NCBI GenBank assembly: GCA_037380925.1
Contig: JARRRH010000001.1
Span: 1 to 51,735 of the forward strand
DNA: 51,735 nt
Source: Deltaproteobacteria bacterium
Lineage (GTDB): Bacteria; Desulfobacterota; DSM-4660; Desulfatiglandales; HGW-15
Reading direction: 5' to 3'
Under the pieces are notes generated by a model. That model was given only the letters and a program-made list of their open reading frames with translations. It was not told the origin of the DNA and ran no database searches. Made by a program: the position numbers and the translations under genes. This document shows positions 3 to 35,014 of the stretch, one piece after another (position 1 is the first letter of the stretch; each line of letters opens with the position of its first letter).

Positions 3-233
3 CCCCTGGCCGACTCGATCGAATCAAAATACAATTTCTGGGGCCGAACGCACGCCTCCGAGCAGGACTCGGCGGCAATCGCAACTACCATCGTGAACCT
101 CGGCGAGTTTACCAATCTATCCGGAGCGCGAAGAGCCGCACATCGGAAAGGCCGAGCAGTTTGCGGCCACAGTGAGGGGTCTTTTTGCGCCCTGGCTCCG
201 TCCGCAAGCAAAGCGGTTTCGGAAGATCATTGA
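3..233 (+). CDS. 3' end of an upstream gene, product unknown (partial at window edge)
   Basis: This frame is open from the window edge to TGA at 231-233. Third codon positions are mostly G/C (PLADSIESKYNFWGRTHASEQDSAAIATTIVNLGEF...). No family recognised. It would overlap the next start by ~62 nt. Confidence 0.3.
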   Translation, partial: PLADSIESKYNFWGRTHASEQDSAAIATTIVNLGEFTNLSGARRAAHRKGRAVCGHSEGSFCALAPSASKAVSEDH

Positions 234-21900: not shown

Positions 21901-24900
21901 TACCTGTTTGCGGCCCAGGATATCGGCGAAGTGGGGAATCCTATCACCACCGAGGTCGGCAATATCGAAGGCAAGTCCACGGCGGGCAGCACCTGGGTAA
22001 CGAACACCGGTCCGTTGACCGTGGGCGGGGTGGTGGACAGCTCTGACCCGGGGATGCTGGGTGGAGGGTCTGCCATCATCACGGCGACAAGTCCCATTAC
22101 TGTGGAAGAGGATTTGGTGTTCCCCAATGAAATCATCCTGACGGCAGGAGACTCCCCGGATGCCGGTGACGACCTGGTCGTGGTCAGCGGCAAGAGAGTC
22201 CAGTCAGAGTATGTGGAGTTGCGAGCAGGGGACAACTTGATCATTGAAGAAGACGCCGTGATCGAGGCGACAGCCCTGAAGCTCTTCGGAGATTACGGCA
22301 ATGCCGACCCGGAGGTCGGGTCCACCATAGACCCGCGGGGAGAGATCATTGCCACGTCGGTTGAGATCCTCGGTGAAGCCGACGGCGATGTGTTTGCTCT
22401 CGGGAATCTTTCGGCACCTGCGAGCGTTACAGGCGGGGGAGGGACAGACGAGCTGATCGGACCCGACGAGCCCGGTGGGCCGGACGGGCTCATCAATAGC
22501 TGGGAGATCCTGGGTCCCAACAGCGGCAATCTAAATGAGATGTTTATCATTTTTTCCGAGGTGGAGAGCCTTACCGGCGGCTCCGGGGATGACACTTTCT
22601 ATTTCCGCGGTCCCGGCAGCGTGGACGGCGTCGTGGACGGCGGTGCCGGGTTCGACATCCTGGACTTCCTCCAGTCCGATTATATCCAGCAGGCGGCTCA
22701 GGATTTCATAGACGTGGACCTGCCCATCGGAGACCCTCCTCCCGTGCCCTTTGCGGCAACCGGGGGGATTGTCCGGATCGAGGACATCAAGGTCATTCTC
22801 TTGGCGGAACTCCAGGAGGACGGCACGCTGGTTCTGAACATGGGGCCGCGGGCGGCGGAAAGGCTGACGATCAATACTGAAGACGGCGACGAGGTGTTTA
22901 CCCTGGGTCACGTGAAGGGGGATCCGGCCGATGCGGAGGGGGAGACCATAGCCGTGTCGGCCTTCGGCTTCACCCTGGAATATGACGGGGTTTCCTCAAT
23001 TCGCGGCTCGGGAGGCGAGGGGAACGACACCATCTTCCTCAGCAGTGACATCATGGCTCCGGCCGAACTGGACGGAGGTCCGGGGAGCGACACCTTGACG
23101 GGCGGTGCGGGCAACGACATTTTGCTCGGCGATGCGGGAATCATTACCCGCTCTTACAATGATGACGAGACCCTACGCAAAGATGTGCTTCTGACCGACG
23201 TGGGGATGATCACAGGTGCGTATACGCCAAGCGATTTAGGCTGGAAGGATGTGAGCTCAGCTGTTGTTTCGGATCTATTGGAAGCAGATCTCGTTCTGCT
23301 GACTGGTGCTTATAACGGTGACGGAAGCAAACATTTTGTTGAGAATTCGTGGGGTTGCCTAGAGTGGGAGACCCAGTTGCTTCTCGTCTTGCTCCTTGAG
23401 GACGGAGATGACATCCTTGACGGGGGTGCCGGGGATGACGCCCTGTTCGGCGGCCGCGGGAATGATTCAATTGGGGGCGGCGATGGGCGCGACTACCTGG
23501 TGGGCAACGCCGGGAATGACGACCTGGACGGCGGGGATGAAAACGACATTCTGGTGGGCGATGACGTCACGCGAATCGTACCTGACAGTCCGCTTCCCAA
23601 TGTGTTGCGCGGCCTCCATATGACGGGCGGGAACGGCCACGGTGGAGGAATCGTCCTGGGCGACTCGGGAACAACCATTGTGCCCATCGTCTCGGTTCTT
23701 CCCAATAAGGACCTAGACCCGCTTGTCGGCGTGACGACTCACGTCAGCAGCGACCTTCCCATCCTGCCGGATGACAATGTGCTTGACCGTGCTGATGGCA
23801 CGTACCTGGTGCCCTTGGCCTCGATCGTCACGGACGTGGGGCACCACCTTGATCTCCTTCCCGGCAATGATAGGCTCTTCGGAGGCGAAGGCGATGACAA
23901 GCTTGTAGGCGACAACGCGGTCGTTTTTTCTCCGGGCGTAACGATCAACCAGGCATTTCTTGAATCAGCCTTCGGTATGACATGGGATCTCCTCGCGGCC
24001 CTCGATGATTTCGGAGACTTGATCCATCGACTGCACGACGCCGTAGGAGATGGGGATAACTGCCACCCGTGCTACAGCTACGAGGATGTGGTTGTGGATC
24101 AGACATTCTGTCTGGGGAATGACTTCCTAGACGGCGGTGGCGGCAACGATTTTATGGTAGGCGACGAATTGACGTTGAAGGCCCCCTCGATTGGCGTGCC
24201 GACGGATCTGGTCCACGATTTCCACCACCTGATCAACGACCTTGAGGACGTTGGGGATGAGGCCGACTGGGCACTCCATGAGCTCGATGATGTGGCCCAT
24301 GACCTGCGGGATGACGTGATTCCCGTAAAGCACGGTAAAAAACGGATTAAGGGCCACCTCGTGCACCACATCGACCGCATCTTCGTCGGGAATGACTCGC
24401 TGGTGGGCGGTGACGGAGATGACCTCATGGTGGGTGACAACTGGAGCTACCTCGCACCTGAGATAACAGTCACATCAGGTGGATGGCCGGGCTACCATGG
24501 GTTCTGGCACCATGATCATGGTTGGGGATATGACCGCGGCAACCACTATGGGTGGTACAACGGAGGTCACAACAAGGATGGTCATGACGGACCGGGAGAC
24601 GTGTGGATCGTCGGTAAAGATACGATGGACGGCGGTGGAGGCAATGACGTGATGTTCGGTGACAGTATCGCGCTGACAGAGCCGACCATGGCCTCGACCG
24701 CAGATCTGTGCTGGTGGAAATTCGGAGCTGTTCATCACAAGGTCGAGGACATTCTTGATGACATTGTCAAGATGGGCCAGTATGGCGATGTCAGCGAGAG
24801 CTGCAACGCGGTGAACGGTGGCAATGATTACATTGTCGGCGGTGACGGGGATGACATGCTTTTCGGTCAGGGCGGTAATGACAAGCTCTACGGTGACGCC

Positions 24901-25179: not shown

Positions 25180-25221
25180 GGGAATTTAAAAGGCATCTTG
25201 CAGCCACGGAATGGAAAAGAG

Positions 25222-25265
25222 GGCCGAACCACACAAGGACAAACTTCTGGTGGTTCGGCCTTTTT
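25222..25265 (+). terminator. Intrinsic terminator after the giant gene
   Basis: An 11-bp perfect GC-rich stem, GGCCGAACCAC (25222-25232) / GTGGTTCGGCC (25250-25260), is followed directly by TTTTT (25261-25265), 43 nt after the stop codon. Confidence 0.8.
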
Positions 25266-25343
25266 AACGGTACAATAGATAAGGGCTTGAAACACAATAA
25301 GGCTGACTAATACAAACGCACTAAACAGAATAATGTCACTCTG

Positions 25344-26525
25344 GTGGAAAAGGAAGAGCATAGCAGTAAAGAGAATGGAAGAGGTTCAAATCCCGCAACG
25401 GAGAATACCCAGGTAAAGATCCGGTGGGATAGATCCGATACCCGGAGTGCCTACGCTGATCGTTTCAATGTGATGGTCACCCGGGAGGAGATTATTCTGT
25501 GTTTTGGTTTGAACCAGGCCCTTGATGTCGGCCAGAAGGAGATGACGGTTCAACTTTCGAACGGAATCGTCCTGAGTCCCTTTGCAGCCAAACGGTTAGC
25601 CAATGCACTGAACCGTGTCCTCCAGGACTATGAGTCCAAATATGGTCCTCTGAAGGTGAAGGCTGCGCCGTCAACGGATTGGGCTCAGATTGCGCCACTC
25701 AGCGAGAAGCCCCCCTTTTCTGAGAAAGCAGGCCTGCTTTTTCATCTCGTAAAAAACCTCAACACAGAATACGGTTTTGAGCGTTCTTTCAAGATTTCCG
25801 AAAAAACATTGCTTGGAAATCGATTCCTGTTCACCATGAGTAAGCACGCCATAAGACAAAATCCCGATGAAGCCATATTGAATATCTGCAGAAAAATGGA
25901 TATGCCGAAAAAATTGCTGGAAGTCTTCCATGGAAACTTGCCATCTGCAAATTATGTCCATTTCGGGTTTGAGGAGGACGAAAAAAGTTACATTTACAAA
26001 GCCTATTTGGAGTTCTGGACCGACTGGGAAAATGAAATTGGGAAAAAGTCAAATCCGTCCGACCCGTTCTTGGTGCATTTGGGATTCAAGTGGGACGTAT
26101 CCGAGCCTACCCGATGCGTACTGACAAGATACACTTGCTATCCTTTCCTTTCTGTGGAAAATATCCTGGAGAGGTTGTCAAAGGTCTTTTACGGTGACCG
26201 CTACAGAACCCCTTTTGAGATCGCAAAAGGCATTGTCACTCTTGCTTCAAATAGAATATCCCACGAAAAGATCTTATATATCGAGGCAGAAGAAGAGAAC
26301 AATCCGAGAAGATCATTCGACATGAATATGTACAGGGCCAAAGTTCGTTTAGAAGAACTTTACCCTCTTTTGATGGACATGTGCCAGCACTATTCAATTC
26401 CCACAGCGGAATTTGATATCTTATATGACCAATTCAAAGCCAAATTATTTGGCCACTTGTCCGGTGGTATTGACAGGGAGGGAAAGGATTTCTTAACCGT
26501 GTACTACGGGGTGGAAGGGCATTAA
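25344..26525 (+). CDS. DUF3467-like N-terminal module fused to an uncharacterised ~270-aa domain
   Basis: GTG start. Residues ~23-105 (QVKIRWDRSDTRSAYADRFNVMVTREEIILCFGLNQ...VQLSNGIVLSPFAAKRLANALNRVLQDYESKYGPL) fit the DUF3467 pattern as I recall it (YSN..i.hs..EFvlDF...RIvLtP.hAKRLl.aL..ni.kYE..fG). I do not recognise the remainder. Confidence 0.75.
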   Translation: MEKEEHSSKENGRGSNPATENTQVKIRWDRSDTRSAYADRFNVMVTREEIILCFGLNQALDVGQKEMTVQLSNGIVLSPFAAKRLANALNRVLQDYESKYGPLKVKAAPSTDWAQIAPLSEKPPFSEKAGLLFHLVKNLNTEYGFERSFKISEKTLLGNRFLFTMSKHAIRQNPDEAILNICRKMDMPKKLLEVFHGNLPSANYVHFGFEEDEKSYIYKAYLEFWTDWENEIGKKSNPSDPFLVHLGFKWDVSEPTRCVLTRYTCYPFLSVENILERLSKVFYGDRYRTPFEIAKGIVTLASNRISHEKILYIEAEEENNPRRSFDMNMYRAKVRLEELYPLLMDMCQHYSIPTAEFDILYDQFKAKLFGHLSGGIDREGKDFLTVYYGVEGH

Positions 26526-26590
26526 CTCAGGAAGCCTTGGAAGGTGCCGAGGCGACTGTTATCGTAGAATGTTAATTGTGAAAGAAGAGC

Positions 26591-27493
26591 ATGACTTACA
26601 CAAGAGTTGATCTTACCCAATACGTTGTCATTTCTATTTGTTTTAGTTGTAACAACGACTGCAGCATCTGTATGCTGTCGGGGCTTAAAAGAAAGTTTCC
26701 TGCCATAGGCTTCGACCGTTTCAAGAAAGTGATCATCGATATTGTGAATAGCGGCAGGTTCGAGAATCTGATCCTTTCAGGAGCAGAGGTGACGACCTTT
26801 AACGATCTGGACAAGTATGTCCAATTCGCCGCTTCTCTTGGATGGTTCAAGAAAATACAAGTACAGACAAACGGCAGAAGACTCAGTGAAAAAGGATATC
26901 TGAGGCATCTGATTGATGGTGGCGTCAATGAGTTCTTCATCAGCATCCACGGCCTTGACGACGTTCATGATGCGATCACGCGCATGCGAGGGTCCTTCAA
27001 AGAGACGAGGGAAGGCCTTAAAAACCTTGAAGCCTTTGACGTTAATGTGATCAGCAACACGGTTCTGACAAAAACCAATCTTCACGATATGGCTCGCCTC
27101 ATGACCTTTTTGTCCAATGAAAGGATCAGCGAGATTCAGTTGTGGAACTTCTTCCCTATGGAGAGAACGGACACCAAAGATCTTGTGGTAAGCATGAAGG
27201 ATTTCACGGAAGTTCTCCCCGAAATACTTTCCATTGTAAAGAGAGCCGGTAAGCCCTTGGTTTTGAAAAGTTTTCCCGAGTGTCTTTCTATGGGGGAGCC
27301 TGGGTTCTTCGACAGCTTGTTTCCGGTGACCGTGCTTCCAGATGTTTTTTGGAGAAAATTCAGCGAAAGCGGGTTCGGAACGTGTATTTACAGGCAGAGA
27401 GAGGAGTGCAAGGCTTGGAAATGCTGGGGTCTCTCCAGTGCCTATGTTCAGAAATACGGAGATGAAAGAAATCTCCTGAAGCCTATGATGTGA
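26591..27493 (+). CDS. Radical SAM protein (300 aa, single core, Cys-rich C-terminus)
   Basis: CNNDCSIC (CxxxCxxC) near the N-terminus, followed by LILSGAEVT and QVQTNG strands typical of the radical SAM half-barrel. C-terminal CIYRQREECKAWKCWG. Confidence 0.85.
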   Translation: MTYTRVDLTQYVVISICFSCNNDCSICMLSGLKRKFPAIGFDRFKKVIIDIVNSGRFENLILSGAEVTTFNDLDKYVQFAASLGWFKKIQVQTNGRRLSEKGYLRHLIDGGVNEFFISIHGLDDVHDAITRMRGSFKETREGLKNLEAFDVNVISNTVLTKTNLHDMARLMTFLSNERISEIQLWNFFPMERTDTKDLVVSMKDFTEVLPEILSIVKRAGKPLVLKSFPECLSMGEPGFFDSLFPVTVLPDVFWRKFSESGFGTCIYRQREECKAWKCWGLSSAYVQKYGDERNLLKPMM

Positions 27494-28362
27494 GAAAGAC
27501 CATGGACGGATTGGAATACATGACCGCTCAGGATGTCTTCTTTGATTTCTGCTTGTGGGAATACACCCCTCTAGCGCCCTGGGAAAACAAATTCAGCTCC
27601 TCAACCCTGCTTTTTCACTCCTTTAAAGTCGCCGGTCTCGATGAGCGGATTTTCGATCTTATCCAAGCGATCCGTAAAGGGATCGGTCTTTCACGCACAG
27701 TGTGGGGAGTCAAGCAGTTAGGAGACGATATCCGATGGGAATTCTACTTTTATGATTACAGGAGAAGAGAAAGGGAGAGGTCCATTACGAAAGTCCTGGA
27801 AATCATGCGGCCTTTTGTCCGCTGTGGGATGAAAGTCAATGAAAATTACCACTATTTCATGTTCTCTATCGATATTAGCGGCGATCTTTTTGCAAAAGCC
27901 ACGGAATTAGAAGAGATCCATATGTACATCGGCAACGTCGGCAGCACCGTTTCATCAGGAATCTGTTACTCCTTAAAAAATGAGGGGACAAGGCTTGAAA
28001 ATTTTTACTTCTTTTTTGATGCGAAAACACAGGGGGATGAGATCTTAGGTAAGGTCGTTAGTTCTGCCTATATTGACACAACCGTAATAAAAATCGATCA
28101 AATTCTCTGGCCTGAAATGAGAGACTGCAAGGTCATCGTGGTGGCCAACAAGCAGAGTAATGACGCCGTCTATTTTTCAAGAATCAATGTGGATCAGCTG
28201 ATCTTTTTCCTCAACAGGATGAACTATCCAAATGAGCTTATCTCTTTCATAGAGAAAAACAGGGCCAAGCTGGACCACCTGCAATATGACGTCGGTTATG
28301 ACTACAAGATGGACGGAAAAGATTTAATGATTCTGAAAAGCGGCTACTATGGGATTTTTTGA
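27490..28362 (+). CDS. Uncharacterised protein, distant paralog of the C-terminal domain of the 25344 gene
   Basis: GTG start overlaps the preceding stop (GTGA at 27490-27493); alternative ATG at 27502. By-eye collinear similarity to gene 25344: VWGVKQLGDDIRWEFYFYDY vs VHFGFEEDEKSYIYKAYLEF; ...DGKDLMILKSGYYGIF vs ...EGKDFLTVYYGVEGH. Confidence 0.7.
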   Translation: MRKTMDGLEYMTAQDVFFDFCLWEYTPLAPWENKFSSSTLLFHSFKVAGLDERIFDLIQAIRKGIGLSRTVWGVKQLGDDIRWEFYFYDYRRRERERSITKVLEIMRPFVRCGMKVNENYHYFMFSIDISGDLFAKATELEEIHMYIGNVGSTVSSGICYSLKNEGTRLENFYFFFDAKTQGDEILGKVVSSAYIDTTVIKIDQILWPEMRDCKVIVVANKQSNDAVYFSRINVDQLIFFLNRMNYPNELISFIEKNRAKLDHLQYDVGYDYKMDGKDLMILKSGYYGIF

Positions 28363-28394
28363 ATGACTGCTGGAAATGACCTTCGAGAGTAACG

Positions 28395-29507
28395 ATGATC
28401 ATCAGCATATACAACCTCCACAATATGTGTGAAAATAATACTTTTTTCCTCTCCAGAGCCTGGCGCTACTTTGAGCTCAACGGCCACACGGTCACGGATG
28501 CAGGGGATGAAGTTGACCTGGTTTTCATCGGCGGTTGTGCAGTCACGGACCTGATGCGTTCGCGGTGCGAAGACACTATCCTGAAAAGGATACAACAACT
28601 CCAGCAGGCATACTTTGTGATCTTCGGATGCCTGGCAGCCTTCCCGGAGGGATTCCGATCGATAACTGGCCGGAATGCTGATCGCCTTCGCCTTATTCCT
28701 TACCAGGACAGCGGTGAACTGGACGAACTGATTAAGGCACGGATCCCCTTTGACATGGTCAATATTAGTCGGCTGAAAGGACACGTACCCTACCAACCCC
28801 GGGTGGGGCCGGACGATTTCTATGTGCTGATCGCCCAGGGCTGCGTTAATAATTGCAGTTACTGCAACATAAAAAGGGCCAAGGGAAACGTGGTGAGCCG
28901 TTCGGAAGAAGCCATCGAGGGTGAGGTGAGGGAGTTATACTCTCTTGGAATCCGGACCGTGACGCTTTTGGGTGACGACTGCGGCTCGTATGGTCTCGAT
29001 CGCGGCTCGACCCTGCCGAAGTTGATCACGCAGCTCAGCAGGGTGGGGCCCGAGCTGCGGTACAAACTCTACACGGTTTTCCCTCCCCTTTTCCTACAAT
29101 ACGCCGCACAACTGGAGCCGTTCTTTGCACAGCGCCGCGTGCCGTATGTGTGCCTTCCAGTACAGTCAGCAGCCCCTCGGGTTCTGGACCTGATGAATCG
29201 GCACTACGATCCTGACCAGCTGGCAGGGGTGATCGCTCGTCTCAGGTGTCTGGATCCCGAGGTCTTTGTCTACTCCCATTTCATCTTTAACTTTCCGACG
29301 GAAACCTGGGGCGAATTCGAGCAGAGCATTGCTTTCGCACGGCACTTTGACCACTGTGTATTCATCGGCTACGGCGAAAATAGCTCGACGCGGGCAGCAG
29401 CGCTTACCCCGAAATGCAGCAACCATGAATTAGAGGACAAGGCGCGGCGACTTGAGGAGTTGGTCGAGCGGGGTGAGTTAAGGGCCTTCGTGGTGCCGTG
29501 CCCTTGA
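28395..29507 (+). CDS. MiaB/RimO-family methylthiotransferase-like radical SAM protein without a TRAM domain
   Basis: N-terminal three-Cys domain (NMCENN ... GGCAVTD ... FGCLAAF). Radical SAM core IAQGCVNNCSYCNIKRAKGNVVSRS...TLLGDDCGSYG. The protein ends soon after the core, leaving no room for a TRAM fold. Confidence 0.8.
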   Translation: MIISIYNLHNMCENNTFFLSRAWRYFELNGHTVTDAGDEVDLVFIGGCAVTDLMRSRCEDTILKRIQQLQQAYFVIFGCLAAFPEGFRSITGRNADRLRLIPYQDSGELDELIKARIPFDMVNISRLKGHVPYQPRVGPDDFYVLIAQGCVNNCSYCNIKRAKGNVVSRSEEAIEGEVRELYSLGIRTVTLLGDDCGSYGLDRGSTLPKLITQLSRVGPELRYKLYTVFPPLFLQYAAQLEPFFAQRRVPYVCLPVQSAAPRVLDLMNRHYDPDQLAGVIARLRCLDPEVFVYSHFIFNFPTETWGEFEQSIAFARHFDHCVFIGYGENSSTRAAALTPKCSNHELEDKARRLEELVERGELRAFVVPCP

Positions 29508-29566
29508 TCCCGGGATCGGGCTGGCCGTACACGCGTTTGGGGCTCAGGCCAAAACAGACGTGGTGA

Positions 29567-30748
29567 ATGAAAATGTTACCCAGCACACACGACTTTCAGC
29601 ATGGGATGATTTCCATTTTAAATGCGAGCAAACGGTGCGAGCCCAGCGCCTTTTTGTTCACGAAAGCGGTGAGGTTTTTTCTGGTGAACGGGTATGGCAT
29701 AGGGAACAATATCGACCAGAGCGAGATAATCCTGGTGAACACATGCTGCGTTACGGAAGACAAAATAGCAGCCTCCAGGGAGGCTCTCGACTGCGCCAGA
29801 AACCAAGGGAATGGAAAGCGGGTTGTCCTGTTCGGCTGTATGGCCAGTCTCCCTCTTCCGGGATTGGAACGGGAGTATCTGATCTGCATCGGCCCCAAGA
29901 ATCTGGACGCGCTGGATACTCATTTCCCGCACCATACGTCGGTCAATGATATCCCTGTCAATCAACTGTCCCCGCAGCTCTACGAACCAGGACAGGGACT
30001 CGGATACGGAGACTACTTTGTGCTGATTGCCCAGGGCTGCTCTAACCAGTGCTCCTACTGCAACATTAAGCGGTGCAAAGGAGAGGTGAGAAGCGAACCT
30101 GCCGAAAGGATCCTTCCGCAGATCCGGAGAGGCCTTTCCCTGGGGGTGCAGGAATTTGCCCTTTTGGCTGATGACTGTGCGAGCTATGGTCGTGATCTTG
30201 GGACCGACCTCGTGCAGCTCATTGAACAATTGTTCACCTCAAAACCCGATTTCGGTCTGAAACTGGGGTATGTTTATCCGCAATTTATCCTGAGGCATTT
30301 CACCAGGTTGAAGAAAATCTTCGGAACCGGACGGATCAGGTACCTCAACATTCCGGTGCAGTCAGGCTCACAAAGAATCCTGGATCTCATGAACCGGCGT
30401 TATTCCATCGACAGAGTAATGGAAGCCGTCCGGGAGTTGCACGAGGTGGCACCACGCACGACCTTCTGCACGCACATCATGATCAACTTTCCGACCGAGT
30501 CCCATGACGATTTTCTTAAATCCCTCGCGGTTGCAGATGGCTTCGACGAGGTGCTCTTCCTGCATTACTCGGACAATCAGGACACCGCCGCTGCCCGCAT
30601 CCTCCCTAAAGTGTCTGAGCCAGAGGTCCGCAGGCGGCTGGACATGGCTTCCCATTACGCGAATCATTGGAGGCGGGGGCAAAGCGCCGTCATCAAAGAT
30701 TTCAACTGTGATATCCCCTACAACATGCTTAGAACCATCGAAGGATAG
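29567..30748 (+). CDS. Second MiaB/RimO-family methylthiotransferase-like radical SAM protein without a TRAM domain
   Basis: KRCEPS ... NTCCVTED ... FGCMASL, then IAQGCSNQCSYCNIKRCKGEVRSE...LLADDCASYG. Paralog of the preceding gene. By alignment to that paralog, ATG 29606 (MISILNASKRCE) may be the true start. Confidence 0.8.
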   Translation: MKMLPSTHDFQHGMISILNASKRCEPSAFLFTKAVRFFLVNGYGIGNNIDQSEIILVNTCCVTEDKIAASREALDCARNQGNGKRVVLFGCMASLPLPGLEREYLICIGPKNLDALDTHFPHHTSVNDIPVNQLSPQLYEPGQGLGYGDYFVLIAQGCSNQCSYCNIKRCKGEVRSEPAERILPQIRRGLSLGVQEFALLADDCASYGRDLGTDLVQLIEQLFTSKPDFGLKLGYVYPQFILRHFTRLKKIFGTGRIRYLNIPVQSGSQRILDLMNRRYSIDRVMEAVRELHEVAPRTTFCTHIMINFPTESHDDFLKSLAVADGFDEVLFLHYSDNQDTAAARILPKVSEPEVRRRLDMASHYANHWRRGQSAVIKDFNCDIPYNMLRTIEG

Positions 30749-30751
30749 AAC

Positions 30752-32287
30752 ATGGCCCTGCCTCTGATAAAGGTCGTGCAGTTAACAGTAACAAACAGGT
30801 GCCAATGCAATTGTCAGCACTGTGGTGTCTCAAAGCTCCGACAAACGATCAAGGGCGAACTCACATTGAAGCAGATCGATTTACTATTTCGGGACTTCAA
30901 GCTTGCCGGATGCCTGGTCGTTGATTTATTCGGCGGCGAGCCCACGTTGCGTCAAGACCTCTTCGAAATCATCGAGCTTGGGAAATTCTATGGGTTCATC
31001 GTGTCGTTGGAAACGAACGGATATGTCGTGGATCACGCGTACATGGAACGGCTCGCTGCAGCAGGACTGGACCTGATTTATCTAAGCCTGGATGATTACC
31101 GGGCAGAGATCCATGACAGAATACGAAGGAAGAAGGGAAGCTTTGAGAGGGCTGTCCGTGCCCTGGAGCTTGGAGCAAAGACGGATATCGTCATGCACGT
31201 CTCGACGGTTCCTCAGACGCGCGAGTATTTCACCAATGGAAATATCAATCGGTTCATGGAGTTTGTGCTGGAGCACGGCGCGGAGCAGGTGCGTCTCCTG
31301 CTGCCCCGATTTGTCGGCCATTCGATTCGTGAGGGATGTGGTCCTCTGGGTGCCGGTGAAGAGAGGGAGCTCTTTTCCTATGTCTCCGCGGGCTATTACG
31401 ATTACATGTACGTGCATACCCCGGGGACGCCCCTTGGGGAGACTAATGTGTGCACGGCCAAGCAGGTCTTCTGTCACGTCATGAGTAACGGCTGGGTTGC
31501 GCCTTGCCCTTATTTTCCGCTGGTTTTCGGGGATGCAACGCGGGAATCGATCGTTGATATCTTTGAGCGTATCCAGGGACATCCTCTGGTGCGGCTTGGC
31601 GGCGACTATTGTCCTATGAGGAATGAGGAGTACATCAACACCCATATCCGAAAGTTGGGGCTCGATCGACCGTTTTTCCCTATTACGGTCGACAACCAGA
31701 TCAATCTCGGCGCTCCGTGCGGGGCGAGATGCCCGGGATGCGCTCACGGAGTGCGATCGGTTCCGAGGTCCGCTGACGAAATTGTTCGAGAGATAAGGGA
31801 GGTACCGTCAGAGTATAGGCGCCTAGAATTCTATGGGGGGGACGCATTCCTGCGGGATGACCTGTTTGCCATCCTCGACCACGTTTCTGCAGCAAAAAAT
31901 ATTACTTTGTGGTCGGCGTGCAGCCAAATGCCGAAAGACCGAGCTTTCATGGACCGCTTGCGATCCTATCGCATTGAGGCTATCAAGGTTCCTTTGCCTT
32001 TTCAGCCCATCGGTGACATTGGGCGCTCCGATCCCGGTAATGGGTTTAGAGAGGCATTGCAAGGAGCGTCCTCAATGAGTAGGTGGGGGTTTCCCATCCA
32101 CCTCTATGTACCGATGATTCGTATGGCAGAATTTCACGCGGCTTTTGCGACGAGCGTTCATGAGTTGGGCGCGGAAAGGCTATACGGTTTCGCAAGAGAC
32201 CTTGAACACCCCTTAGCCAATTCCGTCGCCTGCTTTGGCAGAGAACTGGAGCGTGTGCGGCTCTTATGGGCACGAGAAGCGACCTAA
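30752..32287 (+). CDS. Radical SAM protein with two tandem CxxxCxxC cores and a SPASM/twitch-like Cys cluster (511 aa)
   Basis: Core 1: NRCQCNCQHCG (30800-30823) then DLFGGEPTL. SPASM-like CTAKQVFCHVMSNGWVAPCPYFPLVFGD...YCPM. Core 2: PCGARCPGCAHG (31718-31741) then EFYGGDAFL. The two halves align to each other. Confidence 0.85.
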   Translation: MALPLIKVVQLTVTNRCQCNCQHCGVSKLRQTIKGELTLKQIDLLFRDFKLAGCLVVDLFGGEPTLRQDLFEIIELGKFYGFIVSLETNGYVVDHAYMERLAAAGLDLIYLSLDDYRAEIHDRIRRKKGSFERAVRALELGAKTDIVMHVSTVPQTREYFTNGNINRFMEFVLEHGAEQVRLLLPRFVGHSIREGCGPLGAGEERELFSYVSAGYYDYMYVHTPGTPLGETNVCTAKQVFCHVMSNGWVAPCPYFPLVFGDATRESIVDIFERIQGHPLVRLGGDYCPMRNEEYINTHIRKLGLDRPFFPITVDNQINLGAPCGARCPGCAHGVRSVPRSADEIVREIREVPSEYRRLEFYGGDAFLRDDLFAILDHVSAAKNITLWSACSQMPKDRAFMDRLRSYRIEAIKVPLPFQPIGDIGRSDPGNGFREALQGASSMSRWGFPIHLYVPMIRMAEFHAAFATSVHELGAERLYGFARDLEHPLANSVACFGRELERVRLLWAREAT

Positions 32288-32306
32288 ACCGGAAGGAAGC
32301 ACCAGG

Positions 32307-33542
32307 GTGAATTTCAATAAGAATCGGGTATTGCTACTTTATCCCGCTGCAGAGACAGTGCAATGGAACCTTATCCCGTTGTCGTTGCTCTACGTGGCTC
32401 AACCTCTTATCGAAGAGGGTATAAATGTGGAGATCATTGATCAAAGGCTTGAAAGAGATTTTTTTGGAAGAGTGCATCAACGAATCACTCCAGATCTTAT
32501 ATGTATCGGAATTAGCTGCATTACCGGGCCTCAAATAGAGCAGGTCATTAGGATCTCTGAATTCATCAGGAAGGTTACAAACACTCCTATCGTGCTTGGA
32601 GGACCCCATCCCACTCTCTTGCCCGAACAGACGCTCGAGTCTGGACTTGTCGATTATGTTGTGATCAGTAAAGGTGAAGTACCTTTTTTGAACCTTGTAA
32701 GAGCGCTGAAAATGAATGGATCTGCTCAGAGAGTTCCCCAGGTGGGGTACAAGGAAAACGGAAAAATTGTTATCCATAAAGGCCACGTGCCGGAAATCAT
32801 TGTTCGCAGAATACCCTACCACCTCGTCTCCCGGTACGGGAGACCTTCGACCGTTCCCATCATCTCTTCCTACGGGTGTCCATACCATTGCTCGTTTTGT
32901 GTGGAAAAGGTCTTACATCCGACCTACTATGAAATACCGATCCGTGATGTCTTGTTCATGGTCGAGGAAGCCCTAAGCCTAGGTCCAGAGTTCATAGACT
33001 TTATTGATGATAATTTTCTCCTAAACAGTAAAAGGGTGATTGAACTTTTTTCTTCCTGCCAGGGGAAAGGCCTCGACTTCCGTTGGTTATGTACGGGCAG
33101 GGTGGATGGGGTTTCAAGTCTGGATGACGAAACCTTGAGGTTTTTGAGAAAAAGGGGTTTGGTATGTATCTATTTCGGAATAGAATCTGGTTCTAAAAAG
33201 ATATTGAAATTGATTAATAAAAGGATAACGCCGGAGATGGTTCTAAGGCTCAATTTGAGACTGAGAAAAGAGGGGATCATCCCACACTACAGTTTTATGG
33301 CTGGGTTCCCAACGGAGACGGGAGAGGATATCGGAAAGACGATAGGATTAATGAATCGGCTGAAAGAGGAAAACCCCGAAGCCGTGATTTGGAAGATCAA
33401 CCAGTATACTCCTTATCCTGGCACCGAATTGTTCGACCTCGCCATCCAAAACGGTTTTAAGCCTCCTGAGAAATTCGAGGAATGGAGTCATATCCATTTT
33501 TATTCTAAACACCATGCGGGGCCATACGACCTGCACTACTAG
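32307..33542 (+). CDS. B12-binding-domain radical SAM protein (class B type)
   Basis: GTG 32307 follows GGAAGGAAG, 19 nt after the previous stop; the tracked ORF start at 32235 overlaps the upstream gene. Rossmann-like B12 domain (VLLLYPA..., ICIGISCITGPQ, PIVLGGPHPT), then SSYGCPYHCSFCVE. Confidence 0.8.
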   Translation: MNFNKNRVLLLYPAAETVQWNLIPLSLLYVAQPLIEEGINVEIIDQRLERDFFGRVHQRITPDLICIGISCITGPQIEQVIRISEFIRKVTNTPIVLGGPHPTLLPEQTLESGLVDYVVISKGEVPFLNLVRALKMNGSAQRVPQVGYKENGKIVIHKGHVPEIIVRRIPYHLVSRYGRPSTVPIISSYGCPYHCSFCVEKVLHPTYYEIPIRDVLFMVEEALSLGPEFIDFIDDNFLLNSKRVIELFSSCQGKGLDFRWLCTGRVDGVSSLDDETLRFLRKRGLVCIYFGIESGSKKILKLINKRITPEMVLRLNLRLRKEGIIPHYSFMAGFPTETGEDIGKTIGLMNRLKEENPEAVIWKINQYTPYPGTELFDLAIQNGFKPPEKFEEWSHIHFYSKHHAGPYDLHY

Positions 33543-33661
33543 TAAAAATGCATTAAATCACGTGAGACGGGCCCCTCTCCACCTTTCGCGTTGACCAGGA
33601 GAGAGGAAAGCACTAAATCTCATGTGCTTCTGCAAACAAGAATAGATCAGAAAAGGTTCAT

Positions 33662-35014
33662 ATGGCTTCGGGGAATCATCAACGGAAGAACCAAGGCAAA
33701 GAGTTTGATTATCTCTGCGTGGATGACTTTATTAAGAACCTCTTTGATGCCCGAGCCCTAGCGACTGCATTTGAAATACGGCTTATCGACTCCCTTCTTC
33801 AGGACAAACATGCCACGGTTGATTCCCTAACAGTACAATTGGGCATGGACAGCCGTGGAATGCGCTTACTTCTTGACCTTCTCCTTGCCAATCGCGTGGT
33901 CGAAAATAAGAATGGCGACCTGAGTCTCACAGAAGAGTTTGCTCATGCGCTACAATTTCGTGAGCTGTTAGAGTTGAAACTCATCATGACAAATTTCGCC
34001 GCCCATGACCTCTTGGATTACTTTAGTGAATTGGTGAGTCGCCCTGAGCAATTTGTGAACAAAGCCCGCTTTTTCAAATTATTTTCTTATAATAGATGTT
34101 TTGACTATAGCCAGGAGAATTACGAGCTGACCAAACGGTGGATGCGGATTACGACCGTCTTGACCAAATACGAGGCGCAGGCATGTATCAAATACCACGA
34201 CTTCAGCCGATACAGACGTATTTTGGACATCGGAGGAAACAGTGGCGAATTTGTCCGCCAGATTTGCAAGATATACCCGAGGGTTTCAGCTACGGTTTTT
34301 GACCTCCCTCTTGTTTGCGATATCGGGCTGGAGCATATCCGGTCCGAATCCGAAGCGGATAGGATAACATTTATTAAGGGAAACGCATTAACCGATCCTT
34401 TGCCGGAGGGTTTTGATCTGATCACCTTTAAATCCATGCTCCATGATTGGCCGGAAAGAGAGGCAAAGAAGTTCATGGAAAAAGCGATCCACTCTTTAGC
34501 GTCTGGAGGAACATTGCTGATTTTCGAGAGGGGTCCGATTGAAATTGGTGAGACTCCATTCCCGTATTCAATGATTCCATTCCTTGTTTTCTTCCATTCT
34601 TTCCGATCACCGGTAATATACGAAGAGCAGCTTGAAATGGACCACGCGACGTCATACATGGCGAAAGATAGCAAAGATAACAGCAGTGAGAAGTCCGGCA
34701 TGAGCAGCAGCGCCGCACAGGTCGGCGATCAGGTGAGAATCCGCTGGGACGGTTCCAACATGAGGAGCGCTTATGCCAACGTTTTCAATGTCACCGCTGC
34801 GAGGGAGGAAGTTGTCCTTTTGTTTGGGATGAACCAAGCCTTTGATGCGGGCCAGAAAGAACTCAAGGTCCAGCTCTCCGACCGAATCGTCCTGAGCCCG
34901 TTCACAGCCAAACGGATGCTTACCGTGCTAAACAATGTCATGAAGGACTACGAGTCGAAATACGGCCCCCTTGACGTGCAACCCTCTCAACCAACGGACT
35001 CTTCGTTACAATAG
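33662..35014 (+). CDS. Class I SAM-dependent O-methyltransferase (family-2 type with N-terminal winged-helix dimerisation region) fused to a C-terminal DUF3467-like module
   Basis: SAM motif RILDIGGNSGEF, then ATVFDLP, ITFIKGNAL, DLITFKSMLHDWPE and GGTLLIFE. C-terminal residues (34730-34978) QVRIRWDGSNMRSAYANVFNVTAAREEVVLLFGMNQ...RIVLSPFTAKRMLTVLNNVMKDYESKYGPL closely match the N-terminus of gene 25344. Confidence 0.8.
   Translation: MASGNHQRKNQGKEFDYLCVDDFIKNLFDARALATAFEIRLIDSLLQDKHATVDSLTVQLGMDSRGMRLLLDLLLANRVVENKNGDLSLTEEFAHALQFRELLELKLIMTNFAAHDLLDYFSELVSRPEQFVNKARFFKLFSYNRCFDYSQENYELTKRWMRITTVLTKYEAQACIKYHDFSRYRRILDIGGNSGEFVRQICKIYPRVSATVFDLPLVCDIGLEHIRSESEADRITFIKGNALTDPLPEGFDLITFKSMLHDWPEREAKKFMEKAIHSLASGGTLLIFERGPIEIGETPFPYSMIPFLVFFHSFRSPVIYEEQLEMDHATSYMAKDSKDNSSEKSGMSSSAAQVGDQVRIRWDGSNMRSAYANVFNVTAAREEVVLLFGMNQAFDAGQKELKVQLSDRIVLSPFTAKRMLTVLNNVMKDYESKYGPLDVQPSQPTDSSLQ

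What the first reader, a model, noticed from the sequence alone, without database searches (positions are those of the whole stretch)
25344..35014. Eight-gene operon with six radical-SAM cores, two methylthiotransferase-like enzymes, a B12-rSAM, an O-methyltransferase and unknown scaffold proteins: candidate undescribed modification/biosynthetic system
Seen in sequence: eight co-directional genes have gaps of 65, -4 (GTGA overlap), 32, 59, 3, 19 and 119 nt. The operon is bounded upstream by a strong terminator (25222-25265) and downstream by a convergent gene. The products are as follows. (1) A DUF3467-like module plus an unknown domain. (2) A small rSAM (CNNDCSIC). (3) An unknown paralog of the domain in gene 1. 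(4, 5) Two MiaB/RimO-like rSAMs with the extra N-terminal three-Cys cluster but no TRAM domain. (6) A 511-aa protein with two CxxxCxxC cores plus a SPASM-like cluster. (7) A B12-binding rSAM (CPYHCSFC). (8) A family-2 O-methyltransferase fused to a second DUF3467-like module. Established knowledge: MiaB/RimO enzymes install methylthio groups on tRNA or ribosomal protein S12. Class B rSAMs typically methylate unactivated carbons. SPASM rSAMs commonly crosslink or modify peptides. Inference: this is a multi-step radical tailoring pathway (C-S, C-C and O-methyl chemistry). I do not recognise the gene combination as any characterised cluster. I found no precursor-peptide gene, protease, transporter or regulator in the operon. 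The substrate could be a protein or peptide encoded elsewhere, one of the operon's own products, or a small molecule such as a methylthiolated or methylated aromatic or lipid.
Basis: partly seen in the sequence, partly recalled or inferred. Interest (0 to 1): 0.85.

Follow-up and report, generated by a model that had tools for sequence, protein, structure and literature searches.

The report
Enzyme cluster linked to giant secreted proteins
The eight-gene radical-SAM operon is real, but it is a mosaic: a widely conserved, uncharacterised enzyme core (two prenyltransferase-fold proteins, a radical-SAM enzyme and an O-methyltransferase) that sits beside giant secreted "LEPR-XLL" proteins and a dedicated SecA-type export set in many bacterial phyla, and probably modifies those proteins before export.

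Summary
All eight ORFs, their spacing, motifs, domains and the upstream hairpin are confirmed. The operon is not one co-conserved unit.

- **Core.** g2 (small radical SAM), g3 and the g8 O-methyltransferase, usually with g1, recur in about 80 species-level genomes from many phyla. g3 keeps 50-71% identity.
- **Fold.** The two "unknown scaffold" proteins (g1 C-domain, g3) are predicted ABBA prenyltransferase barrels. In three relatives the methyltransferase is fused to isopentenyl-diphosphate isomerase. g2-g3 fusions exist.
- **Context.** In 29 of 39 long loci the core lies within 10 kb of a giant gene. Where the giant's N-terminus is visible it usually carries the LEPR-XLL motif. A SecA paralog, HlyD-type adaptors, an M50 protease fusion and TolC are often nearby. 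In the window, the SecA paralog, an adaptor and a ~7,160-aa LEPR-XLL/RTX gene sit directly upstream.
- **Accessory genes.** g4-g6 (two TRAM-less MiaB/RimO-like enzymes plus a double radical SAM) form a separate cassette. It stands alone in four genomes and is embedded in the system in some Desulfobacterota. g7 is also accessory.

Best reading (about 0.45): a cytoplasmic maturation module (prenylation, methylation, radical chemistry) for the giant exported protein. The main rival is a small prenylated aromatic metabolite. I found no literature describing it.

The parts
172..2070 (+). SecA paralog, 632 aa. It has the DEAD motor, the preprotein-crosslinking domain and the P-loop domain, and lacks the C-terminal third of housekeeping SecA.
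   Evidence: Pfam hits SecA_DEAD, SecA_PP_bind and P-loop_SecA. It scores below the cut-off of every SecA/SecA2 equivalog. A SecA+MFP pair lies next to the core in 11 or more genome loci and in L096 and L100.
2087..2917 (+). HlyD/RND-type membrane-fusion (periplasmic adaptor) protein. The likely start is the ATG at 2087; the longest ORF starts at 1943.
   Evidence: Pfam HlyD_D23 and HlyD_3. TIGR01730 RND_mfp scores 113 bits against a cut-off of 95. It is conserved immediately after the SecA paralog in relatives.
3693..25179 (+). Giant secreted-type protein gene of about 7,160 aa. It is read as two ORFs (3693-12998 and 12913-25179) that look like one gene broken by a frameshift near 12870. The N-terminus is a basic stretch plus the LEPR-XLL motif (IEPLEPRLLLDAE, nt ~3795-3857). 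It carries 15 LktA_tand_53 repeats and C-terminal RTX repeats.
   Evidence: NF012209 LEPR-XLL scores 20.9 bits against a cut-off of 17. NF012206 has 15 stretches. HemolysinCabind is present. The frame continuation is shown. The same motif is found on 28 distinct giant ORFs next to the core in other genomes.
25217..25265 (+). Intrinsic-terminator-like hairpin plus a U-run between the giant gene and g1.
   Evidence: Fold energy is -28.8 kcal/mol, z = -6.46, with 0 of 200 shuffles as stable. The consensus scan missed it because its loop exceeds 8 nt.
25344..26525 (+). g1: an N-terminal DUF3467 domain (nt ~25377-25655) fused to an ABBA prenyltransferase-fold domain (nt ~25716-26522).
   Evidence: PF11950 scores 67 bits. 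In the AF2 model the C-domain has pLDDT about 90 and ten strands in alpha-beta-beta-alpha order. Foldseek top hits are CdpNPT, LimF, PagF, DMATS and KgpF, with E from 9e-8, probability 1.0. Relatives often carry two tandem copies of the C-domain in proteins of 680-716 aa.
26591..27493 (+). g2: small radical-SAM enzyme of 300 aa (CNNDCSIC) with four C-terminal Cys. It is a core component and its stop overlaps the g3 start (GTGA).
   Evidence: PF04055. The best NCBIfam hits, HxsC4, HxsC and TrsS, are far below cut-off. The closest PDB hits are GDGT-MAS and SkfB at E = 2e-8. It is present in 71 of 80 loci and in 39 of 39 long loci. It is fused to g3 in P0361 and P0399.
27490..28362 (+). g3: 290-aa ABBA prenyltransferase-fold protein with no Pfam family. 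It is the most conserved marker of the system.
   Evidence: Word-indexed search finds 1766 homologs. There are 523 clusters at 50% identity among 1.84 billion representatives. It keeps 50-71% identity across phyla. AF2 gives pLDDT 86.7 and pTM 0.88. Foldseek hits FamD1, AmbP1/3, KgpF, LimF, EpzP, NphB and CloQ with E from 1.3e-7 and TM 0.45-0.53.
28395..29507 (+). g4: MiaB/RimO-like radical-SAM enzyme of 370 aa, with an auxiliary-cluster Cys triad and no TRAM domain. Accessory cassette gene 1.
   Evidence: TIGR00089 scores 167 bits against a cut-off of 251. UPF0004 scores 24.6 against 27. The Cys residues are invariant. It stands alone with g5 and g6 in L092-L095.
29567..30748 (+). g5: MiaB/RimO-like radical-SAM enzyme of 393 aa, with no TRAM domain. 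Accessory cassette gene 2.
   Evidence: TIGR00089 scores 188 bits against 251. UPF0004 scores 30.8 against 27. The family has only 211 hits. C24, C60, C91, C158, C162 and C165 are invariant.
30752..32287 (+). g6: 511-aa protein with two radical-SAM cores and a weak SPASM/twitch-like Cys cluster between them. Accessory cassette gene 3.
   Evidence: PF04055 gives two stretches. PF13186 scores 19.1 against 21.5. AhbD, WgkB, NirJ and MftC-like hits are all far below cut-off. It always follows the g5 homolog in L092-L095, L099 and L100.
32307..33542 (+). g7: class B (B12-binding) radical-SAM enzyme of 411 aa (CPYHCSFC). Accessory.
   Evidence: PF02310 scores 66.6 bits and PF04055 81.4 bits, both above cut-off. 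The best NCBIfam hits are PhpK, BchE and ApyD-like, all below cut-off. Homologs lie next to the core only in L014, L063 and L089.
33662..35014 (+). g8: family-2 O-methyltransferase with a dimerisation domain (nt ~33737-34528) fused to a second DUF3467 domain (nt ~34694-34975). The methyltransferase is a core component.
   Evidence: PF00891 scores 91.8 bits and PF11950 71.1 bits. The closest solved relatives are DnrK, AlpH and hydroxyindole OMT. The methyltransferase is present in 65 of 80 loci and 36 of 39 long loci. In L008, L012 and L016 it is fused to isopentenyl-diphosphate isomerase.

Best explanation
The operon is the enzyme block of a larger, widespread and uncharacterised system. That system is built around giant (7,000-18,000 aa) RTX-type surface or secreted proteins that start with a basic stretch and the motif RRKx-Phi-(F/L)Ex-Phi-E(P/Q)R-Phi-LLSA(D/E), the 'LEPR-XLL' motif.

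Shown:
- The invariant enzymes are g2 (radical SAM), g3 (ABBA prenyltransferase fold) and the g8 O-methyltransferase.
- They are usually joined by g1 (DUF3467 plus one or two further ABBA domains) and by stand-alone DUF3467 proteins.
- They are syntenic with the giant gene, a SecA paralog, three HlyD-type adaptors (one fused to GAF, one to an M50 metalloprotease) and TolC.

Inferred:
- The enzymes act in the cytoplasm on the giant protein before or during export. They transfer a prenyl group from DMAPP or a longer diphosphate (g3, g1), methylate (g8) and perform a radical-SAM step coupled to g3 (g2).
- The DUF3467 domains fused to g1 and g8 dock the enzymes onto the substrate or onto the SecA-type motor.
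- In this Desulfobacterota lineage a separately mobile cassette has been recruited to add further marks. The cassette is g4-g6 (two TRAM-less methylthiotransferase-like enzymes plus a double radical SAM), together with a B12 radical-SAM methylase (g7). The added marks would be methylthio, C-methyl or crosslinks.

The modified residue or residues are unknown. The invariant Glu-x-x-Glu-x-Arg of the N-terminal motif is the prime candidate, because it is the only part of the giant proteins that I saw conserved across phyla (only the N-termini were compared), as g3 is.
For: Synteny:
- g3 homologs were fetched from 80 species-level genomes.
- g2 is present in 71 of 80 loci, the methyltransferase in 65 of 80 and the g1 C-domain in 56 of 80. 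In the 39 loci of 17 kb or more, g2 is in 39 of 39 and the methyltransferase in 36 of 39.
- 29 of those 39 loci have a giant gene within 10 kb, and 32 of 39 have a giant gene or an export component.
- 28 distinct neighbouring giants carry the LEPR-XLL motif.
- Complete layouts are seen in L096 (17,800-aa gene), L099 (9,253 aa) and L100. The window itself has SecA, the adaptor, the giant gene and then g1-g8.

Chemistry:
- Both unknown domains are predicted as 10-strand ABBA barrels matching aromatic and peptide prenyltransferases at probability 1.0.
- IDI is fused to the methyltransferase in three loci. NF002995 scores 150 bits against a cut-off of 127.
- g2-g3 fusion proteins exist, and in the window the two genes overlap by 4 nt.

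Protein rather than metabolite:
- No scaffold-building enzymes are conserved.
- The only conserved small ORF is DUF3467.
- DUF3467 is fused to two different enzymes and also sits beside the giant gene.
- The M50 fusion resembles the daptide leader protease at E = 2.6e-40.
- The nearest relatives of g2 are peptide-modifying enzymes, HxsC, TrsS and SkfB.
- RimO, a relative of g4 and g5, modifies a protein (established knowledge).
Against: - There is no direct evidence for any modification or for the substrate.
- The ABBA assignment rests on predicted structure with TM of only 0.45-0.53 and about 10% identity. There is no Pfam prenyltransferase hit, and the catalytic residues could not be checked.
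- The closest solved relatives of the methyltransferase are all small-molecule aromatic O-methyltransferases.
- ABBA enzymes mostly act on small aromatics.
- 7 of 39 long loci show no giant or export gene within 10 kb.
- At least one neighbouring giant, in Anabaena (L075), lacks the LEPR-XLL motif.
- DUF3467 is absent from the minimal Burkholderiales-type loci, so it cannot be the universal motif reader.
- The g4-g6 cassette occurs alone in four unrelated contexts. Its substrate therefore need not be the giant protein.
- A strong terminator separates the giant gene from g1 in the window.
Confidence: 0.45

Rival explanations
1. The core makes a small prenylated, O-methylated aromatic metabolite, for example one derived from indole, tryptophan or a phenol. 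g4-g7 would add methylthio or C-methyl groups. The metabolite would be co-regulated or co-exported with the giant adhesin, or sensed by the GAF-HlyD protein. DUF3467 would be only an assembly scaffold.
For: - The closest solved relatives of the methyltransferase are DnrK, AlpH and hydroxyindole OMT.
- The top structural hits of g3 are the indole prenyltransferases FamD1 and AmbP1/3.
- IDI fusions exist.
- Burkholderiales and cyanobacterial loci add a Trp-halogenase-like gene (10 loci) and a 2OG-Fe(II) oxygenase (16 loci).
- A GAF small-molecule-binding domain sits on an adaptor.
- A terminator separates the operon from the giant gene.
Against: - No conserved enzyme could build or activate a scaffold.
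- No dedicated small-molecule pump or regulator is conserved.
- This reading does not explain why a binding domain (DUF3467) is fused to two enzymes and also encoded next to the giant gene.
- It does not explain why 29 of 39 long loci have a giant gene within 10 kb.
- Halogenases, prenyltransferases and O-methyltransferases of these families are also used on peptides in RiPP pathways (established knowledge).
Confidence: 0.25
2. The DUF3467 proteins are themselves the substrate or carrier. The enzymes would modify a residue of, or build a product on, the roughly 110-aa DUF3467 protein. That protein would then act with the SecA paralog or the giant protein, for example as a lipidated chaperone or plug.
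For: - Stand-alone DUF3467 is the only conserved small ORF.
- One to three copies occur per locus, often next to the giant gene.
- The domain has nearly invariant Trp, Phe and Lys positions.
Against: - A substrate fused to both a prenyltransferase-fold protein and a methyltransferase, at opposite termini, would be unusual.
- DUF3467 is missing from the minimal OMT-g3-g2 loci, although g3 is as conserved there.
- DUF3467 is a broad family found outside this system (Pfam description).
Confidence: 0.1
3. The eight genes are unrelated housekeeping radical-SAM genes (tRNA or ribosomal methylthiotransferases, cofactor maturases) that merely lie next to each other.
For: - g4 and g5 are automatically annotated as MiaB, RimO or CDKAL1 in some sources.
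- The g4-g6 cassette can stand alone.
- GC content differs between blocks.
Against: - All eight fall below every equivalog cut-off.
- g4 and g5 lack the TRAM domain.
- The core genes are syntenic across many phyla.
- g4-g6 are embedded between g3 and the methyltransferase in several independent contigs, in different orders (L010, L063, L089, L099, L100).
- g2-g3 fusions exist.
Confidence: 0.03

Closest known systems
Cyanobactin-type peptide prenyltransferases (PagF, LimF, KgpF, PirF, DciF) and bacterial ABBA aromatic prenyltransferases (NphB, CloQ, FamD1, AmbP1/3)
   Same: g3 and the g1 C-domain have the same predicted 10-strand alpha-beta-beta-alpha barrel. A DMAPP-supplying IDI is fused into the cluster in relatives. 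They partner with methyltransferases, as in some cyanobactin pathways.
   Different: Identity is only about 10% and there is no Pfam or NCBIfam membership. There is no short precursor peptide, heterocyclase or subtilisin-like protease. They are coupled, and sometimes fused, to a radical-SAM enzyme. They are linked to giant proteins of 7,000-18,000 aa and to export genes.
RimO/MiaB/MtaB radical-SAM methylthiotransferases
   Same: g4 and g5 have the UPF0004 N-domain with its three-Cys auxiliary cluster and the radical-SAM core. RimO shows that this family can act on a protein (Asp88 of S12; established knowledge).
   Different: They have no TRAM domain and score 167 and 188 bits against the family cut-off of 251. 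They occur as a pair with a double radical-SAM protein, either alone or inside the giant-protein system. Their activity is unknown.
Accessory Sec (SecA2/SecY2) loci of Gram-positive bacteria, which glycosylate and export serine-rich-repeat adhesins
   Same: The logic is the same: a very large adhesin-like protein, a dedicated SecA paralog, cytoplasmic modifying enzymes and small accessory proteins are encoded together (established knowledge, compared).
   Different: The hosts are diderm. No SecY2, Asp1-3 or glycosyltransferases were seen. The SecA paralog is below every SecA2 equivalog cut-off. The partners are HlyD-type adaptors, an M50 fusion and TolC. The enzymes are prenyltransferase-fold, radical-SAM and O-methyltransferase proteins.
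RTX toxin activation by HlyC/CyaC acyltransferases before type I secretion
   Same: A lipid-type modification enzyme is co-encoded with an RTX-repeat protein that leaves through a TolC-type duct (established knowledge). The window's giant protein has C-terminal RTX repeats.
   Different: The proposed lipid is a prenyl group, not acyl-ACP. There is no HlyC-family gene. No ABC transporter lies within 10 kb in L096 or L100, or in the window among the larger ORFs that were annotated. The conserved signal is N-terminal.
Proteusin/polytheonamide-type RiPP tailoring (several radical-SAM enzymes including B12 C-methyltransferases)
   Same: Several radical-SAM enzymes plus a class B methylase (g7) and a SAM methyltransferase lie in one operon with no scaffold-building enzymes.
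   Different: There is no NHLP or Nif11 precursor and no RRE domain. The putative substrate is about two orders of magnitude larger.

Membership tests
MiaB/RimO radical-SAM methylthiotransferases (g4, g5) | N-terminal UPF0004 domain with three conserved Cys for the auxiliary [4Fe-4S] cluster | tested here: met
   PF00919 scores 24.6 bits in g4 (just below the cut-off of 27) and 30.8 bits in g5. C24, C60 and C91 (g5 numbering) are invariant in 13 family members including g4.
MiaB/RimO radical-SAM methylthiotransferases (g4, g5) | C-terminal TRAM domain | tested here: not met
   There is no TRAM hit. Alignments to TIGR00089 stop at about position 361 of 429, and the proteins are 370 and 393 aa long.
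MiaB/RimO radical-SAM methylthiotransferases (g4, g5) | Score above the curated family cut-off (TIGR00089, 251 bits) or above any equivalog cut-off | tested here: not met
   The scores are 167.3 and 188.3 bits. All MiaB, MtaB and RimO equivalogs are far below cut-off.
MiaB/RimO radical-SAM methylthiotransferases (g4, g5) | Methylthiolation activity | not testable with these tools
   This needs a biochemical assay.
ABBA (PT-barrel) aromatic/peptide prenyltransferases (g1 C-domain, g3) | Ten-strand antiparallel barrel built from alpha-beta-beta-alpha units | tested here: met
   The AF2 models show 10 strands in that order, with pLDDT 86.7 for g3 and about 90 for the g1 C-domain. All significant Foldseek PDB hits listed are ABBA prenyltransferases, with E as low as 9e-8 and probability 1.0. 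This is a predicted, not a solved, structure.
ABBA (PT-barrel) aromatic/peptide prenyltransferases (g1 C-domain, g3) | Sequence membership in a known prenyltransferase family | tested here: not met
   There is no Pfam or NCBIfam hit at E <= 0.01. There is no PDB sequence hit.
ABBA (PT-barrel) aromatic/peptide prenyltransferases (g1 C-domain, g3) | Prenyl-diphosphate binding and transfer | not testable with these tools
   Support is only indirect. IDI is fused to the cluster's methyltransferase in L008, L012 and L016. None is present in the window. Conserved Lys, Arg and Tyr lie on strands, but their orientation was not checked.
RiPP biosynthetic gene cluster | Short precursor-peptide gene in or next to the cluster | tested here: not met
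   There is no ORF in the intergenic gaps. Across 84 loci the only conserved small ORF is DUF3467.
RiPP biosynthetic gene cluster | Leader-recognition element and leader protease or exporter | tested here: inconclusive
   There is no RRE/PqqD hit. DUF3467 fusions could play that role. An M50-HlyD protein related to the daptide protease is present in relatives but not on this contig.
Class B (cobalamin) radical-SAM enzymes (g7) | N-terminal B12-binding domain plus a radical-SAM core | tested here: met
   PF02310 scores 66.6 bits (cut-off 32.1) and PF04055 81.4 bits. No equivalog cut-off is reached.
SPASM/twitch radical-SAM enzymes (g6) | C-terminal auxiliary-cluster SPASM domain | tested here: inconclusive
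   PF13186 scores 19.1 bits against a cut-off of 21.5, over residues 234-272 only.
Family-2 O-methyltransferases (g8) | Methyltransf_2 catalytic domain with an N-terminal dimerisation domain | tested here: met
   PF00891 scores 91.8 bits (cut-off 22.3). PF08100 scores 23.3, slightly below its cut-off of 25.6. PDB relatives include DnrK and ASMT.
LEPR-XLL domain giant proteins (upstream gene) | N-terminal LEPRxLL motif on a very large protein | tested here: met
   NF012209 scores 20.9 bits (cut-off 17) at residues 35-55 of a roughly 7,160-aa reading frame.
Accessory Sec (SecA2) system | SecA2 equivalog plus SecY2/Asp accessory genes | tested here: not met
   The SecA paralog scores 463-618 bits against cut-offs of 725-1100 for the four SecA2 models. 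No SecY2 or Asp genes were seen in the Pfam listings of L096 and L100.
Type I secretion system | ABC transporter plus HlyD adaptor plus TolC-like protein | tested here: not met
   Adaptors and OEP are present. No ABC transporter lies within 10 kb in L096 or L100, or among the window's annotated larger ORFs. One could be encoded elsewhere.

The most novel reading that the evidence does not exclude
Diderm bacteria from many phyla would possess an unrecognised export-and-maturation pathway for their largest proteins. An N-terminal LEPR-XLL signal would be read in the cytoplasm. The protein would be covalently prenylated by ABBA-fold enzymes working with a fused or coupled radical-SAM partner, and methylated. 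In some lineages it would also be methylthiolated or C-methylated. It would then be driven out by a SecA-paralog motor through an M50/GAF/HlyD-TolC conduit that contains no ABC transporter. This would be the first bacterial protein prenylation of non-RiPP proteins and a new secretion route.
Probability: 0.25. Interest if true: 0.95.

Novelty: new variant of a known kind. Interest (0 to 1): 0.8.

Why it matters
Giant RTX-type surface proteins are among the largest bacterial gene products. How they are recognised, anchored and exported is largely unknown for the LEPR-XLL class, which so far exists only as an annotation label.

This work links them to three things:
- A defined, very conserved enzyme set. 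g3 keeps more than 50% identity from Desulfobacterota to cyanobacteria.
- Two new ABBA-fold families with a radical-SAM partner.
- A SecA paralog.

That turns the open question into testable experiments: mass shifts on the N-terminal fragment, DMAPP turnover, and knock-outs in Nostoc or Anabaena.

If the substrate is the protein, this would extend prenylation and RimO-like chemistry to giant secreted proteins. If it is a metabolite, it would define a new widespread prenylated natural-product class tied to adhesin loci. Either way, it assigns a predicted fold, and with it a likely chemistry, to several thousand 'hypothetical proteins'.

Tried and rejected
- **g1C-g3 paralogy by sequence.** BLASTP and hhalign of 81- and 64-sequence profiles were both negative. 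Only the predicted fold is shared.
- **Sequence searches of PDB.** Searches with g1, g3 and a DUF3467 profile gave nothing significant.
- **PHROGs.** There was only a weak DUF3467-like hit.
- **PADLOC.** There was only generic radical-SAM-core similarity to pVip, so this is not a defence system.
- **Rfam scan of 24900-35400.** There were no riboswitches or RNAs.
- **Consensus promoter/terminator scan.** Counts were at or below shuffle expectation, and the scan missed the long-loop terminator.
- **Metagenome scan with g6.** It returned only 4 loci.
- **Search for conserved small ORFs.** Only DUF3467 and its antisense shadows were found.
- **Search for the end of an M50-HlyD gene upstream of SecA at the contig edge.** Nothing was found.
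- **P0436, a 3,798-aa 'giant + g3' protein.** I judged it a probable gene-call chimera and did not use it as evidence.
- **Literature searches.** Searches for DUF3467, LEPR-XLL, DUF4347 and combinations of SecA, HlyD, giant, radical SAM and prenyltransferase found no functional description.
- **HxsC membership of g2.** Rejected: 72-93 bits against cut-offs of 268-500.
- **One script timed out** and was rerun.

Full report
**Observation**

The eight co-directional ORFs exist at the stated coordinates. Pfam and NCBIfam confirm the domain calls:
- g1: DUF3467 plus a region with no family.
- g2: a 300-aa radical-SAM protein.
- g3: no family at all.
- g4 and g5: a UPF0004 domain plus a radical-SAM core, aligned to the MiaB/RimO model only up to about position 361 of 429, so there is no TRAM domain. 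They score 167 and 188 bits against a cut-off of 251.
- g6: two radical-SAM stretches and a sub-threshold SPASM hit.
- g7: a B12-binding domain plus a radical-SAM core.
- g8: Methyltransf_2 plus a second DUF3467.

The auxiliary-cluster Cys triad and the CxxxCxxC motif are invariant in the g4/g5 family. The hairpin at 25217-25265 is very stable (-28.8 kcal/mol, z = -6.5). No gene reaches any curated equivalog cut-off.

One statement fails. g3 is not a detectable sequence paralog of the g1 C-domain, since BLASTP gives E = 5 and hhalign gives probability 0.4%.

**What the 'unknown' proteins are**

AlphaFold2 models were built on alignments of homologs. The g3 model has pLDDT 86.7 and pTM 0.88. 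The g1 C-domain model has pLDDT about 90. Both show ten antiparallel strands in alpha-beta-beta-alpha order.

Foldseek against the PDB returns aromatic and peptide prenyltransferases of the ABBA/PT-barrel class as all the significant hits listed. The hits are FamD1, AmbP1/3, KgpF, LimF, PagF, PirF, CdpNPT, DMATS, EpzP, NphB and CloQ. E-values reach 1e-7, probability is 1.0, TM is 0.45-0.53 and identity is about 10%.

There is independent support. In three relatives (L008, L012, L016) the cluster's O-methyltransferase carries an N-terminal isopentenyl-diphosphate isomerase. NF002995 scores 150 bits against a cut-off of 127.

**The operon is a mosaic**

g3 has 1766 homologs in the word-indexed search, and the top 120 are at least 66% identical. 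It forms 523 clusters at 50% identity among 1.84 billion representatives. A genome scan returned 190 relatives, of which 80 loci were kept. They come from Desulfobacterota, Burkholderiales, Rhodocyclales, Alphaproteobacteria, Planctomycetota, Acidobacteriota, Methylomirabilota, Rokubacteria and cyanobacteria, including cultured Nostoc and Anabaena. Identity is 50-71%.

I searched the window's proteins against six-frame ORFs of these loci:

| Component | Loci of 80 | Long loci (>= 17 kb) of 39 |
|---|---|---|
| g2 | 71 | 39 |
| O-methyltransferase | 65 | 36 |
| g1 C-domain | 56 | 29 |
| DUF3467 | 32 | 17 |
| g4, g5, g6 or g7 (each) | 2-3 | 1-2 |

The minimal invariant set is the methyltransferase plus g3 plus g2. 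g2-g3 fusion proteins exist (P0361, P0399), and the two genes overlap by 4 nt in the window.

The g5 family is small, with 211 hits. In four long contigs the g4-g5-g6 trio stands alone in unrelated neighbourhoods (L092-L095). In L005, L010, L089, L099 and L100 it is embedded after g3, as it is here. In L063 it lies upstream of g2 together with g7, in a different order. In the window the trio also differs in GC content: 0.53-0.55 against 0.43-0.48 for its neighbours.

**What the core is attached to**

The first contigs examined already showed genes of 13,997, 17,152 and 18,352 aa beside the core. Among the 39 long loci, 29 have a giant gene within 10 kb, and 32 have a giant gene or an export component.

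Wherever the giant's N-terminus is visible, it almost always has a basic stretch followed by RRKx-Phi-(F/L)Ex-Phi-E(P/Q)R-Phi-LLSA(D/E). The basic stretch averages 7.5 K/R in 30 residues. This holds for 28 distinct proteins. The motif is NCBIfam's LEPR-XLL domain. The window's upstream gene has it at residues 35-55, together with 15 LktA_tand_53 repeats and C-terminal RTX repeats. Its two ORFs look like one gene of about 7,160 aa broken by a frameshift near 12870.

Recurrent partners in the 80 loci are:
- a truncated SecA paralog followed by an HlyD/RND-type adaptor (11-13 loci; in the window these lie at 172-2917);
- a GAF-HlyD fusion (13 loci);
- an M50-metalloprotease-HlyD fusion related to the daptide leader protease at E = 2.6e-40 (12 loci);
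- TolC-like OEP (15-17 loci);
- stand-alone DUF3467 genes placed next to the giant gene;
- a 203-aa P-loop kinase-like protein (17 loci).

L096 and L100 show the whole system in one stretch with no ABC transporter. The window is a whole contig that starts inside this export block. The GAF and M50 genes are therefore probably beyond its left end.

Burkholderiales and cyanobacterial variants add SapC, a 2OG-Fe(II) oxygenase and a Trp-halogenase-like gene. SapC is the unknown-function member of the sapCDEF locus of Campylobacter fetus (PMC4943207). That locus encoding the S-layer type I secretion apparatus is from my own knowledge.

**Most likely mechanism**

Shown: the synteny, the folds, the fusions and the motif. 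Inferred: everything else.

I read the operon as the cytoplasmic maturation block for the adjacent giant exported protein.
- The ABBA proteins g3 and g1 transfer a prenyl group.
- g2 performs a coupled radical step.
- g8 methylates.
- The DUF3467 domains, fused to two different enzymes and also encoded beside the substrate gene, dock the enzymes to the substrate or to the SecA-type motor.
- In this lineage g4-g6 and g7 add extra marks.

The arguments for a protein substrate are as follows.
- No scaffold-building enzymes are conserved.
- The only conserved small ORF is DUF3467.
- The nearest relatives of g2 are peptide-modifying enzymes.
- An M50 protease related to a RiPP leader protease is present.
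- RimO provides a precedent for this enzyme family acting on a protein.
- The only part of the giant proteins I saw conserved across phyla (only the N-termini were compared) is the N-terminal motif, which mirrors the unusual conservation of g3.

The arguments against are as follows.
- The methyltransferase's solved relatives are all small-molecule aromatic O-methyltransferases.
- ABBA enzymes mostly prenylate small aromatics.
- Seven long loci lack a nearby giant or export gene.
- One neighbouring giant lacks the motif (L075).
- DUF3467 is absent from the minimal loci.
- The trio can live alone.

I put the protein-maturation model at about 0.45 and a prenylated aromatic metabolite at about 0.25. 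DUF3467 as substrate or carrier gets about 0.10 and chance adjacency about 0.03. The remainder is unassigned.

**Comparison with known systems**

In logic, the system works most like the accessory-Sec loci of Gram-positive bacteria, which combine a giant adhesin, a dedicated SecA paralog and cytoplasmic modifying enzymes. It also resembles HlyC-type lipidation of RTX proteins before export. In chemistry, it is closest to cyanobactin-type peptide prenylation and to proteusin-type multi-radical-SAM tailoring.

It is a member of none of these.
- The SecA2 equivalog cut-offs are not met.
- No SecY2, Asp, HlyC or ABC transporter was seen.
- There is no precursor peptide or RRE.
- g4 and g5 fail the TRAM and score criteria of the MiaB/RimO family.
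- g1C and g3 fail sequence membership of any prenyltransferase family.

**Novelty and verdict**

Searches of 8 million full texts found no functional description of DUF3467, LEPR-XLL, or this gene combination.

The finding is real and more interesting than a lone operon, but differently from how it was framed. The key unit is a pan-phylum system associated with giant proteins, and the headline methylthiotransferase pair is an accessory insert. I rate it a new variant of a known kind (modification enzymes coupled to export of a large surface protein). There is a 0.25 chance that it represents a new secretion-plus-prenylation pathway. Interest is 0.8.

Noticed in passing
window 3693-25179 (junction ~12850-13000): The 3101-aa and 4088-aa ORFs overlap by 86 nt. 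The second frame continues the repeat pattern right after the first frame degenerates into Arg/Cys-rich sequence. This is probably one gene of about 7,160 aa with a frameshift, either an assembly error or a pseudogene.
   Followed up: partly
window 172-2917: A truncated SecA paralog (632 aa) is followed by an RND/HlyD-type adaptor at the very start of the contig. In relatives this pair is preceded by GAF-HlyD and M50-HlyD fusion genes, and no ABC transporter is nearby. This hints at a SecA-powered tripartite exporter.
   Followed up: partly
L031, L030, L075 and about 16-19 other loci (e.g. L031:6640-8965, 12183-14465): Burkholderiales and cyanobacterial versions of the core carry SapC (19 loci), a PF13759 2OG-Fe(II) oxygenase (16 loci) and a Trp-halogenase-like gene (10 loci) beside OMT-g3-g2 and TolC. 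The same trio of families is known to me from TonB-receptor loci, where its function is unknown.
   Followed up: partly
L008, L012:10861-12477, L016: Isopentenyl-diphosphate isomerase is fused to the N-terminus of the cluster's O-methyltransferase.
   Followed up: yes
P0361 (600 aa), P0399 (1031 aa): These are natural fusions of the g2-type radical-SAM enzyme with the g3 ABBA-fold domain. P0399 has two radical-SAM stretches.
   Followed up: partly
giant-protein N-termini in 28 loci (e.g. L031:14357-, L069:11056-): The residues just before the LEPR-XLL motif often read RRKALF, which resembles a twin-arginine (Tat) consensus. No hydrophobic h-region follows. In many Burkholderiales and Rhodocyclales (Betaproteobacteria) loci a poly-proline run follows the motif.
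   Followed up: no
L001:6133-6744, L096:9372-9986, L097:13965-14579 and 17 of the 80 genome loci: A 203-204-aa P-loop protein recurs inside the core. It matches uridine-kinase-like PRK08233 below cut-off and has no Pfam hit. It is not present in the window.
   Followed up: no
window 28395-32287 vs flanks: g4-g6 have GC 0.53-0.55, whereas g1-g3 have 0.43-0.46 and g7-g8 have 0.45-0.48. This is consistent with the trio being an inserted block.
   Followed up: yes
L095:7566-12684: One stand-alone cassette has three consecutive TRAM-less MiaB-like genes before the double radical-SAM gene, instead of two.
   Followed up: no
P0436 (3798 aa): This protein call starts with a LEPR-XLL N-terminus and ends in a partial g3 domain. 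It is probably a gene-call or assembly chimera, but it again places a giant gene next to g3.
   Followed up: partly
window 35148-37839 (- strand): A TPR/SPOR protein, a bactofilin and an M23 peptidase lie convergent to the operon. They look like a cell-envelope or division block unrelated to the finding. Further downstream are OmpA, succinate dehydrogenase/fumarate reductase subunits, a class II-like ribonucleotide reductase and two P-type ATPases.
   Followed up: no
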